Positions 47,975-48,259 of a DNA stretch of 64,000 nt are shown here, in pieces. The position numbers were made by a program, and so were the translations under genes. The notes beneath the pieces were generated by a model. That model did not search any database and was not told where the DNA came from. It saw nothing but the letters and a program-made list of their open reading frames with translations. This stretch comes from an uncultured Clostridia bacterium (GTDB lineage: Bacteria > Bacillota > Clostridia > TANB77 > CAG-508). The stretch lies in the NCBI GenBank assembly GCA_947589015.1, contig CANPZF010000004.1, positions 8,726-72,725 on the forward strand. Reading direction: 5' to 3'. The stretch's first letter is position 1, and each line of letters opens with the position of its first letter.

Positions 47975-48235
47975 TTTACCTCCTGTAATAAAATTTATCA
48001 ACAACTGTGACAACACCCAACTAGTTTTATTACTTGTAACCTTGCGCGAAATGAAAGTTCAAAGACTTATCTAACTAATTACCAATTAATAATAAAACTG
48101 TGGCAATATTCTTTCTAAAGTAGTCTAAGCTACAAGGAACGATAAGAGTCCACAGTGTTAACATAGATAATTATATCATGCATTAACATAATTATCCATA
48201 AAGGTTTATAGGGAACCTTTTAAAAACCTAAATCT
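47975..48235 (-). ncRNA. candidate IS110 bridge/seek RNA in the non-coding end upstream of the recombinase
   Basis: Two modules, each a 7-8 bp stem enclosing 46 nt: 48097-48103/48150-48156 (ACTGTGG/CCACAGT, with an apical gtag-cttaga-ctac hairpin) and 48019-48026/48073-80. An 11-mer in the first internal loop recurs at the presumed IS edge. Confidence 0.35.
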
Positions 48236-48259
48236 ATTATACAAGGAACGGGAATTAAC

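What the first reader, a model, noticed from the sequence alone, without database searches (positions are those of the whole stretch)
47975..48250. Candidate bridge/seek RNA upstream of the IS110-family recombinase, with an 11-mer shared between an RNA loop and the IS edge
IS110-family recombinases are known to use a bispecific non-coding RNA encoded in the non-coding end next to the gene. The roughly 290 nt upstream of this recombinase has no ORF. On the minus strand it folds into two similar modules.
- Module 1: stem ACTGTGG/CCACAGT (48150-48156 with 48097-48103) enclosing 46 nt, with an apical gtag-cttaga-ctac hairpin.
- Module 2: stem AATTAGTT/AACTAGTT (48073-48080 with 48019-48026), also enclosing 46 nt.

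The 11-mer tacaaggaacg sits in the first internal loop (48131-48141) and recurs at 48240-48250. That second copy is 10 nt from the VanW start codon, so it is a plausible left junction or target-guide match. An 8-mer on the other side of the loop (tagaaaga) recurs at about 46540, but a match that short could be chance.
Basis: partly seen in the sequence, partly recalled or inferred. Interest (0 to 1): 0.62.

Follow-up and report, generated by a model that had tools for sequence, protein, structure and literature searches.

The report
Bridge RNA of a dead IS110 element
The non-coding stretch upstream of this insertion-sequence recombinase does encode a two-loop "bridge" guide RNA whose loops spell out the DNA on both sides of the element. 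This is a new example of a known system rather than a new kind, and the copy here has lost its recombinase to an 11-bp deletion.

Summary

- **The element.** It is a 1.7-kb IS110-group insertion sequence on the minus strand (window 46545-48242) with GT core dinucleotides at both junctions.
- **The RNA.** Its 270-nt left end encodes a bridge RNA of about 170 nt. A covariance-model match covers 48157-48003, behind an extended -10 promoter.
- **The 11-mer.** It is the left target guide (48141-48132) repeating the left flank plus core (48250-48241).
- **The 8-mer.** It is the right target guide (48117-48110), complementary to the right flank (46545-46538).
- **Guide-flank covariation.** Across 16 and 11 independent insertions in relatives, the variable guide bases track the flanks (0 of 20,000 permutations for each guide).
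- **RNA structure.** Four helices carry compensatory changes in 45 distinct sequences.
- **Correction.** Module 2's closing stem is GUUUUAUUAUU/AGUAAUAAAAC, not AAUUAGUU/AACUAGUU.
- **Donor-binding loop.** Besides the left donor guide it holds a 4-nt handshake guide. The right donor guide is unresolved.
- **Recombinase.** An 11-bp deletion has broken it.
- **Targeting.** The whole clade inserts just upstream of Shine-Dalgarno sequences of genes, here vanW.

It is a new member of a known kind.

The parts
46545..48242 (-). Whole IS110-group element including both copies of the GT core. Core at the left junction is 48242-48241; core at the right junction is 46546-46545. IS body is 48240->46547.
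   Evidence: Conservation among 20+ independent copies starts at ..CCTTGT|ATAATA and ends at ..AATAGTTAGT|CTTT. Four contigs of relatives start exactly at (T/C)CCTTGTATAAT.
48243..48250 (-). Left target (LT) CGTTCCTT in the host flank. On the + strand it is the Shine-Dalgarno region of vanW (AAGGAACG; ATG at 48260).
   Evidence: Identical to the left target guide in the RNA. The variable bases covary with the guide in relatives.
48003..48157 (-). Bridge RNA core (target-binding loop plus donor-binding loop plus a 3' conserved GUGG..CAG motif). The likely transcript runs from about 48163 to about 47990.
   Evidence: Covariance model R1 gives 153.7 bits, E 6.5e-27, and this is the only hit in the window. 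Four helices are 92.9% paired against 71.7% in shuffles, and 22 of 25 pairs have double changes.
48170..48198 (-). Internal promoter for the bridge RNA: TGGATA-17-TATAAT with an upstream TG (TGATATAAT).
   Evidence: Best sigma-70-like site in 46300-48300, 10 of 12 matches with TG. An extended -10 is conserved in relatives.
48098..48155 (-). Target-binding loop module. Basal stem CUGUGG (48155-48150)/CCACAG (48103-48098). Apical hairpin GUAG-CUUAGA-CUAC (48133-48120).
   Evidence: RNAalifold and pair counts show compensatory changes in both helices.
48132..48141 (-). Left target guide (LTG) CGUUCCUUGU, same sense as LT plus the GT core.
   Evidence: At the 4 variable positions, cognate pairs match 3.56 of 4 and non-cognate pairs 2.34 of 4. 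0 of 20,000 permutations reach this.
48107..48117 (-). Right target guide UAGAAAGA (48117-48110), followed by A and then UA (48108-48107). The UA is the handshake guide complementary to the last two donor bases, ..TA.
   Evidence: Reverse complement of the right flank TCTTTCTA. At the 5 variable positions, cognate pairs match 4.55 of 5 and non-cognate pairs 2.82 of 5. 0 of 20,000 permutations reach this.
48024..48098 (-). Donor-binding loop module. Basal stem GUUUUAUUAUU (48098-48088)/AGUAAUAAAAC (48034-48024). Apical hairpin AAGU-CUUUGA-ACUU (48068-48055).
   Evidence: The basal helix is present with different sequences in relatives, and 9 of 10 pairs have double changes. All 4 apical pairs have double changes.
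48071..48077 (-). Left donor guide UAGUUAG, equal to the right-end terminus TAGTTA plus the G of the core.
   Evidence: Covaries with the right-end terminus across the clade: AGTTAG, AGTTGG, AGTCAG, AGCTGG.
48040..48045 (-). Core complement plus 4-nt handshake guide in the donor-binding loop: GC-AAGG, complementary to the target CCTT-GT (with G:T at the second core base).
   Evidence: Covaries with the last 4 nt of LT: AAGG/CCTT, GAGG/CCTC, UAGG/CCTA, GAGA/TCTC, AAGU/ACTT.
48199..48240 (-). Conserved left-end terminus: right donor ATAATAGATT, a -10-like TAGATT/TATATT for the circle-junction promoter, and hairpin AAAGGUU-N7-AACCUUU (48220-48200).
   Evidence: Conserved in all copies and varies with IS subfamily, so it belongs to the IS. 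It also occurs as solo stubs elsewhere.
46824..47970 (-). IS110-family recombinase pseudogene. An 11-bp deletion between 47174 and 47173 removes IPGV of the IPGVGYT motif and shifts the frame.
   Evidence: Relatives encode intact 385-aa proteins. Pfam PF01548 plus PF02371. The intact relative scores 235.7 bits against NF033542, cut-off 140, and matches the IS621 transposase 8wt6 at E 4e-25.
46547..46823 (-). Right non-coding end. TTGACA (46563-46558) lies 11 nt before the core and is the -35 of a circle-junction promoter (TTGACA-N17-TAGATT). An optional palindrome of about 135 nt lies at about 46655-46800.
   Evidence: The alignment of right ends shows TTGAC(A/T) at a fixed distance from the end across the clade, and the palindrome present in only some copies.
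46538..46544 (-). Right target (RT) CTTTCTA in the host flank.
   Evidence: Complementary to the right target guide.

Best explanation
Window 46545-48242 (minus strand) is a 1.7-kb insertion sequence of the IS110 group. Its 270-nt left end encodes a bridge RNA of about 170 nt.

**RNA architecture**
- The RNA has two modules, each a stem, an internal loop and a hairpin.
- The first is the target-binding loop.
  - Its 5' side (CGUUCCUUGU) has the same sequence as the host DNA left of the element plus the GT core, so it pairs with the bottom strand there.
- The second is the donor-binding loop.
  - Its 5' side (UAGUUAG) repeats the element's right terminus.
  - Its 3' side carries a core complement plus a 4-nt handshake guide (GC-AAGG). 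After strand exchange this can pair with the target's CCTT-GT.

**Inferred mechanism**
By analogy with IS621 (inferred, not shown here), a tetramer of the DEDD/serine recombinase uses this RNA to align the circularised element's RE-LE junction (..TAGTTA-GT-ATAATA..) with the target CGTTCCTT-GT-CTTTCTA, and exchanges strands at GT.

**Transcription signals (sequence only)**
- An internal extended -10 promoter at 48198-48170.
- A promoter formed on the circle: TTGACA in the right end, 17 nt, then TAGATT/TATATT in the left end.

**Target choice and state of this copy**
- The target is the 5' edge of a ribosome-binding site. The constant part of the left guide (UCCUU/CCUC) is the complement of AAGGA/GAGG.
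- The element therefore sits 10 nt from the vanW start codon, divergent from vanW and between vanW and its likely promoter.
- This copy cannot move by itself. An 11-bp deletion has frameshifted the recombinase, and no intact copy of the same IS is in the assembly.
For: **Boundaries**
- Alignment of 20+ independent copies from gut Clostridia MAGs fixes the ends.

**Guide-flank covariation**
- Left guide against left flank and right guide against right flank: 0 of 20,000 permutations each.
- Left donor guide against right terminus, and handshake guide against the last 4 nt of the left target, covary across relatives of 37-93% protein identity.

**Structure**
- RNAalifold finds three helices with compensatory changes.
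- The fourth helix, the basal stem of the donor-binding loop, is present with different sequences in most relatives.
- On the model-based alignment of 45 distinct sequences, 92.9% of cells pair against 71.7% in shuffles and 33-52% in slid controls. 22 of 25 pairs have double changes.
- The covariance model hits once per locus, always upstream of and in sense with the recombinase.

**Protein**
- Pfam PF01548 plus PF02371.
- NF033542, 'IS110 family RNA-guided transposase', 235.7 bits.
- IS621 transposase at E 4e-25, with D, E, D, D and the QSG serine aligned.

**Promoter and definitions**
- Best promoter-like site in the region.
- Definitions of guides, core and handshake are taken from PMC11208160 and PMC11208158.

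**Ribosome-binding-site homing**
- 28 of 37 left junctions have a divergent ORF start 4-26 nt from the core, against 13.4% at random positions.
Against:
- No Rfam family matched. This is uninformative if Rfam holds no bridge RNA model.
- The single-sequence fold energy is ordinary, z = -1.29.
- Pairing between the right donor guide and the right donor is not evident for this element.
- In both loops the second core base is mismatched or wobble: LDG has A where the core has T, RTG has A opposite G, and the donor-binding-loop core complement has G opposite T.
- The model-fitted alignment leans towards the given structure (caveat).
- The recombinase here is broken, so the RNA may be a fossil in this genome.
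- No empty site was found in other genomes of the genus.
Confidence: 0.92

Rival explanations
1. The upstream region is only a promoter/5' UTR of the recombinase. The 11-mer and 8-mer repeats are chance, or ordinary target duplications.
For: The fold energy is not exceptional. AT-rich DNA gives many short repeats, and the 8-mer alone could be chance.
Against: The variable bases of both repeats change in step with the flanks in independent insertions. Four helices show compensatory changes. IS110 elements make no target duplication beyond the 2-nt core (PMC11208160).
Confidence: 0.02
2. The 42-nt motif at 48199-48240 belongs to the host as a repeated promoter/leader. The IS ends at about 48207, so the 11-mer at 48240-48250 is not at the junction.
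For: The motif occurs at two further places in this genome without an IS, and also next to a second recombinase only 40% identical.
Against: Motif variants follow IS subfamily. Contigs of relatives break exactly at CCTTGT|ATAAT. The guide match ends at GT directly before the motif in every copy. The solo copies continue into further left-end sequence, up to about +60, and are themselves preceded by ..CTCCTTGT.
Confidence: 0.03
3. It is an IS1111-type seekRNA rather than an IS110-type bridge RNA.
For: It belongs to the same protein superfamily. The right end is also long (277 nt).
Against: The structured guide RNA lies in the left end, upstream of the gene. IS1111 elements carry it in the right end and have 7-17-bp subterminal inverted repeats (PMC11208160). 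Without the optional palindrome the right end is only about 140 nt.
Confidence: 0.02
4. The RNA is a real bridge RNA by descent but is now an inert fossil in this genome, either not made or without a partner. In that case the feature has no present function.
For: The recombinase is frameshifted by an 11-bp deletion. There is only one copy of this IS in a 95.65%-complete assembly. The other IS110 recombinase is only 40% identical and has its own RNA.
Against: The promoter, both loops, both termini and all guide-flank matches are still intact, so any decay is recent. Trans-complementation by an unassembled copy cannot be excluded.
Confidence: 0.6

Closest known systems
IS621 bridge RNA and recombinase (IS110 group; Durrant et al. 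2024, PMC11208160; Hiraizumi et al. 2024, PMC11208158)
   Same: - A DEDD RuvC-like plus Tnp recombinase, with catalytic D/E/D/D and Ser aligned.
- The RNA is encoded in the left end.
- There are two stem-internal-loop modules in the order target-binding loop, then donor-binding loop.
- LTG has the same sense as LT plus core; RTG is complementary to RT.
- LDG has the same sense as LD.
- Handshake bases lie 3' of the core complement.
- A 2-nt core flanks the element.
- The -35 lies in the right end and the -10 in the left end, forming a promoter on the circle.
   Different: - The proteins align only at E 4e-25, in two stretches.
- The core is GT, not CT.
- LTG is 10-12 nt (9 in IS621) and RTG about 8 nt (4 in IS621).
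- The handshake guide of the donor-binding loop is 4 nt (2 in IS621).
- There is an additional internal extended -10 promoter directly in front of the RNA.
- The target is a ribosome-binding-site edge rather than a REP element.
- RDG-RD pairing is not evident.
CazIS110-1 of Caloranaerobacter azorensis (bioRxiv 10.1101/2025.10.25.684509)
   Same: It is an IS110-group element from a member of the Clostridia, with an experimentally shown bridge RNA of about 170 nt holding a target-binding loop and a donor-binding loop.
   Different: The text I read gives no sequence, so relatedness to this clade was not tested. That element is active and present in 10 copies. This one is a single, broken copy.
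IS1111-group seekRNA elements (Siddiquee et al. 2024, PMC11187229)
   Same: The same recombinase superfamily and the same principle of an IS-encoded RNA that reads both target and IS ends.
   Different: There the RNA lies downstream of the gene in the right end, and the elements have long subterminal inverted repeats. Here it lies upstream in the left end.

Membership tests
IS110-group bridge RNA system | Adjacent DEDD (RuvC-like) plus Tnp-domain recombinase | tested here: met
   PF01548 at 9e-41 and PF02371 at 8e-18. The intact relative scores 235.7 bits against NF033542, cut-off 140. IS621 transposase at E 4e-25 with catalytic residues aligned. In the window copy the gene is frameshifted.
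IS110-group bridge RNA system | Structured ncRNA encoded in the left non-coding end, sense with the recombinase | tested here: met
   The covariance model hits once per locus, upstream and in sense, in 47 loci.
IS110-group bridge RNA system | Two stem-loops with large internal loops, supported by covariation | tested here: met
   Four helices; 22 of 25 pairs have double changes; 92.9% paired against 71.7% in shuffles.
IS110-group bridge RNA system | First loop: LTG equals the left flank plus core; RTG is complementary to the right flank | tested here: met
   11-nt and 8-nt matches in the window. Covariation across 16 and 11 distinct insertions, 0 of 20,000 permutations each.
IS110-group bridge RNA system | Second loop: LDG equals the right terminus of the IS | tested here: met
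   UAGUUAG against TAGTTAG. It covaries as AGTTAG, AGTTGG, AGTCAG and AGCTGG.
IS110-group bridge RNA system | Second loop: RDG complementary to the left terminus of the IS | tested here: inconclusive
   Only the core complement and one base pair are contiguous for this element. AU-rich partial matches appear in relatives such as L047 and L049.
IS110-group bridge RNA system | The same core dinucleotide at both junctions, included in the guides | tested here: met
   GT at 48242-48241 and at 46546-46545, conserved across the clade. LTG covers both bases. The other guides cover one base, or use wobble.
IS110-group bridge RNA system | Handshake guides that pair with the non-cognate DNA | tested here: met
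   Target-binding loop: UA against the donor ..TA. Donor-binding loop: AAGG against the target CCTT, covarying as GAGG/CCTC, UAGG/CCTA, GAGA/TCTC. Definition.
IS110-group bridge RNA system | Promoter reconstituted across the RE-LE junction of the circle | tested here: inconclusive
   TTGAC(A/T) lies at a fixed distance from the right end across the clade, and a TATATT/TATAGT-like hexamer lies 17 nt on in the left end. This is sequence only; no circle was observed.
IS110-group bridge RNA system | A transcript of about 150-200 nt that binds the recombinase and directs recombination | not testable with these tools
IS110-group bridge RNA system | Match to a curated RNA family model | tested here: not met
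   No Rfam 15 hit at E <= 10 apart from spurious miRNA-like hits on the right-end palindrome. I could not verify that Rfam holds a bridge RNA model.
IS1111-group seekRNA system | Guide RNA in the right end downstream of the gene, with 7-17-bp subterminal inverted repeats | tested here: not met
   The RNA is in the left end. No such inverted repeats are seen at the ends. Definition.

The most novel reading that the evidence does not exclude
A clade of IS110 elements spread through gut and other Clostridia (37-93% recombinase identity) may home specifically to the 5' edge of ribosome-binding sites.

- The constant part of the left target guide, (U/C)CCU(U/C), would act like an anti-Shine-Dalgarno sequence on DNA. 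The variable part would read the gene-specific spacer.
- The elements would then land in one orientation, 4-26 nt from start codons, between a gene and its promoter.
- A 4-nt handshake guide would lock this preference in.
- The 40-62-nt left-end stubs found at other ribosome-binding sites would be scars of later deletions that now form part of those genes' 5' leaders.

The papers I searched do not describe any of this.
Probability: 0.45. Interest if true: 0.5.

Novelty: new member of a known kind. Interest (0 to 1): 0.35.

Why it matters
**For annotation**
- The finding gives exact ends, target, donor and guide assignments for an uncatalogued IS110 clade that is common in uncultured gut Clostridia.
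- It shows that vanW here is cut off from its likely promoter.

**For the bridge-recombinase field**
- It adds a natural system with a GT core, long guides (10-12 and about 8 nt), a 4-nt handshake guide and its own promoter in front of the RNA.
- It adds a natural target class, ribosome-binding sites. That class exists in front of nearly every gene, yet the spacer bases make each site unique.

None of this changes the known mechanism.

Tried and rejected
1. **Rfam scan** of 45800-48400 at E <= 10 gave only weak miRNA-like hits on the right-end palindrome.
2. **Other copies in the same genome.** There is no other copy of this IS. There is a second recombinase, 40% identical and cut by a contig start, plus solo left-end stubs.
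3. **The right end of that second IS** was sought from its predicted guides and is not in the assembly.
4. **The 42-nt motif as host DNA.** I first took it for a host promoter or target repeat. I rejected that once relatives showed it co-varies with IS subfamily and that contigs break before it.
5. **Single-sequence minimum-energy folds** pair the left target guide with the handshake region and are misleading.
6. **MAFFT/RNAalifold** missed the basal stem of the donor-binding loop because of register shifts. A per-sequence helix search and a covariance model recovered it.
8. **Empty-site search** with the joined flanks in 120 genomes of the genus found no orthologous site, only generic AT-rich promoter-like hits.
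9. **An outward promoter in the left end towards vanW** was looked for. There is only a weak 9/12 site at 48164-48192.
11. **RDG-RD pairing** could not be assigned for this element.

Full report
**1. What is at the coordinates**

The recombinase lies on the minus strand as two overlapping ORFs:
- 47970-47143, 275 aa, Pfam DEDD_Tnp_IS110 at 9e-41.
- 47153-46824, 109 aa, Transposase_20 at 8e-18.

The 289 nt between its ATG and the vanW ATG (48260) hold no ORF of 50 aa or more that lies wholly inside them.

TACAAGGAACG occurs at 48131-48141 and 48240-48250 and nowhere else in the window. tagaaaga lies at 46538-46545.

On its own the region folds no better than shuffles: z = -1.29. Rfam has no match.

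**2. Where the element ends**

The genome is 1.65 Mb with 26.7% GC. The window is contig C4:8726-72725, and the genome holds only this one copy.

A protein-guided scan found 29 related loci in MAGs of uncultured Clostridia from rabbit, goat, roe deer and chicken gut. They are 76-94% identical over the N-terminal ORF.

Aligned in IS orientation (window minus strand), conservation behaves as follows:
- It begins exactly at ..NNNN(T/C)CCTT-GT|ATAATATATTTAGG.. .
- It ends exactly at ..CTATTGACAATTAATAGTTA-GT|CT(T/C)T.. .
- Four contigs of relatives start right at (T/C)CCTTGTATAAT.

The only sequence shared by the two junctions is GT, which is therefore the core. In the window:
- Left core is 48242-48241.
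- The IS body runs 48240->46547.
- Right core is 46546-45.
- The element is 1696 bp counted with one core.

Copies whose apical hairpin reads GUGG/CCAC instead of GUAG/CUAC still have the flank CCTTGTAT. The guide match therefore ends at GT.

**3. The first loop reads the two flanks**

In the RNA (minus strand) the first module has these parts:
- Stem 5' strand: CUGUGG (48155-48150).
- 5' side of the loop: ACUCUUAU-CGUUCCUUGU.
- Apical hairpin: GUAG-CUUAGA-CUAC.
- 3' side of the loop: U-UAGAAAGA-A-UA-UUG.
- Stem 3' strand: CCACAG (48103-48098).

CGUUCCUUGU (48141-48132) equals the left flank CGTTCCTT plus GT. UAGAAAGA (48117-48110) is the reverse complement of T-CTTTCTA at the right junction (46545-46538).

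This is the geometry defined for IS621 (PMC11208160):
- LTG has the same sense as the left target and so pairs with the bottom strand.
- The core is included in the pairings.

In the relatives, the bases just outside the constant CCTTGT and TCTT change from insertion to insertion, and the guide changes with them. Examples:

| Guide | Pairs (flank / guide) |
|---|---|
| Left | CGT/CGT, TGT/TGT, AAT/AAT, CTC/CTC, TTTC/TTTC |
| Right | TCTCTCTT/AAGAGAGA, TCTCTTTT/AAAAGAGA, TCTTTTAT/AUAAAAGA, TCTTTCTC/GAGAAAGA |

The permutation tests on distinct pairs:

| Guide | Distinct pairs | Cognate match | Non-cognate match | Permutations reaching observed |
|---|---|---|---|---|
| Left (4 variable positions) | 16 | 3.56/4 | 2.34/4 | 0 of 20,000 |
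| Right (5 variable positions) | 11 | 4.55/5 | 2.82/5 | 0 of 20,000 |

The flanks are unrelated host loci, so shared descent cannot produce this.

**4. The second loop and the structure**

A class-wide genome search gave 29 further relatives at 37-52% identity. Their upstream regions have the same layout.

RNAalifold on 22 sequences finds three helices, all with compensatory changes:
- the basal stem of the target-binding loop;
- its apical hairpin;
- the apical hairpin of the second module.

The closing stem of the second module starts directly after CCACAG. In the window it is GUUUUAUUAUU (48098-48088) with AGUAAUAAAAC (48034-48024). Relatives have a 6-11-bp helix at the same place with other sequences:
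- UCUUAUU/AAUAAGA
- CUUUUUGC/GCAAAAAG
- CUCUUUA/UAAAGAG
- ACUUUACG/CGUAAAGU
- CUUUACGAGUU/AACUUGUAAAG

A covariance model with these four helices hits once in each of 47 loci, always upstream of and in sense with the recombinase. The window hit is 48157-48003, 153.7 bits.

On that alignment:
- 92.9% of cells pair, against 71.7% in shuffles and 33-52% in slid controls.
- 22 of 25 pairs have changes on both sides.

The caveat is that the alignment was fitted to the model.

Inside the second loop:
- **Left donor guide.** UAGUUAG (48077-48071) equals the right terminus TAGTTA plus G. It covaries across the clade as AGTTAG, AGTTGG, AGTCAG and AGCTGG.
- **Handshake guide.** On the 3' side, GC-AAGG (48045-48040) is complementary to the target's CCTT-GT. 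It covaries with the target as AC-GAGG/CCTC-GT, AC-UAGG/CCTA-GT, GC-GAGA/TCTC-GT and UC-AAGU/ACTT-G.
  - This sits in the position of the IS621 handshake guide. That guide pairs with the non-cognate top strand after strand exchange (PMC11208158). Here it is 4 nt, not 2.
- **Handshake in the first loop.** The UA after the RTG (48108-48107) matches the last two donor bases, TA.
- **Right donor guide.** I could not find convincing pairing to the left terminus ATAATAGATT in this element.

**5. Transcription signals (sequence only)**

- The best sigma-70-like site in 46300-48300 is TGGATA-17-TATAAT with an upstream TG, at 48198-48170 on the minus strand. That is about 10 nt before the first stem. 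Nearly all relatives have an extended -10 there.
- The right end carries TTGACA (46563-46558) 11 nt before the core. On a circle this gives TTGACA-N17-TAGATT (TATATT in most copies).
- TTGAC(A/T) keeps this distance across the clade. This matches the junction promoter described for IS621.

**6. State of this copy**

Relatives encode intact 385-aa proteins. The window copy lacks 11 bp between 47174 and 47173, which removes IPGV of IPGVGYT and shifts the frame.

The intact relative:
- is an 'IS110 family RNA-guided transposase' by NCBIfam, 235.7 bits;
- aligns to the IS621 transposase with the D, E, D, D and QSG-serine positions conserved.

The promoter, loops, termini and guide-flank matches of the window copy are all intact, so the inactivation looks recent. 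The element is probably immobile now.

**7. Target biology**

Read on the host gene's strand, the target is ..AAAG-AC-AAGG(A/G)(G/A)-spacer-ATG.

In 28 of 37 loci with a usable left flank, an ORF of 60 aa or more starts 4-26 nt from the core and diverges from the IS. The rate is 13.4% at random positions in the same loci.

Across the whole clade, therefore:
- the constant part of the left guide is the complement of the Shine-Dalgarno sequence;
- the variable part reads the spacer.

In the window, the IS separates vanW (PF04294) from a likely promoter, TGTGATATAAT, at about 46446-46458. Durrant et al. do not mention ribosome-binding sites, and a text search found no paper linking IS110 targets to them.

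**8. Unexplained side observation: solo left-end stubs**

The first 40-62 nt of the left end occur without an IS body at these places:
- in this genome at C8:25531-25590, between fabZ and accC;
- in this genome at C23:22341-22384;
- in three other genomes of the genus.

Each stub is still preceded by ..CTCCTTGT (..CTCCTTAT in L070). Most of them sit next to a gene start.

**9. Verdict**

This is a real and well-supported bridge RNA. It is a new member of a known kind, with some variant features:
- a GT core;
- long guides;
- a 4-nt handshake guide;
- its own promoter in front of the RNA;
- ribosome-binding-site homing.

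Noticed in passing
G000 C8:25531-25590, C23:22341-22384; loci L070, L071, L072, L074 (around position 1503): Solo stubs consisting of the first 40-62 nt of the IS left end occur without any IS body. 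Each is still preceded by ..CTCCTTGT (L070: ..CTCCTTAT). At least two lie directly upstream of a gene start, for example between fabZ and accC. Several continue with CT(T/C)T like a right-target flank, which suggests deletions running from inside the left end to the exact right end.
   Followed up: partly
G000 C4:1-800 (outside the window; locus L003/L009): A second IS110-group element lies here. Its recombinase is only 40% identical and is cut by the contig start. It has the same left-end terminus, and its own bridge RNA has a left guide (CAACAAUCCUUG) that matches its own flank (ACAATCCTTG). Its right end is not in the assembly.
   Followed up: partly
window 46655-46800: An imperfect palindrome of about 135 nt lies inside the right end of the IS. 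It is present in only some copies (window, L013, L017, L018, L020, L027) and absent from others, so it is a secondary insertion. It gives weak miRNA-like Rfam hits.
   Followed up: partly
window 46446-46458 and 48260-49852: vanW (PG_binding_4 plus VanW domains) is separated from a likely extended -10 promoter (TGTGATATAAT) by the 1.7-kb IS. The IS was inserted 10 nt upstream of the vanW start codon region, and the Shine-Dalgarno sequence is kept.
   Followed up: no
loci L027 and L030, just beyond the IS right ends: L027 has a tandem second copy of the last roughly 45 nt of the right end. L030 has another left-end-like start about 110 nt beyond its right junction. Partial ends therefore seem to be generated often in this clade.
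   Followed up: no
window 48019-48003 and the equivalent positions in relatives: A conserved GUGG-N6-9-CAG motif follows the donor-binding loop in all relatives. In many relatives it reads CUGUGG and could pair with CCACAG as an alternative to the stem of the target-binding loop.
   Followed up: no
window 46534-46545: The right flank TCTTTCTAGCAC is identical at 11 of 12 positions to the reverse complement of the right-guide region of the second IS (TCTTTCAAGCAC). This is probably chance, because the left flank does not match that element's left guide.
   Followed up: partly
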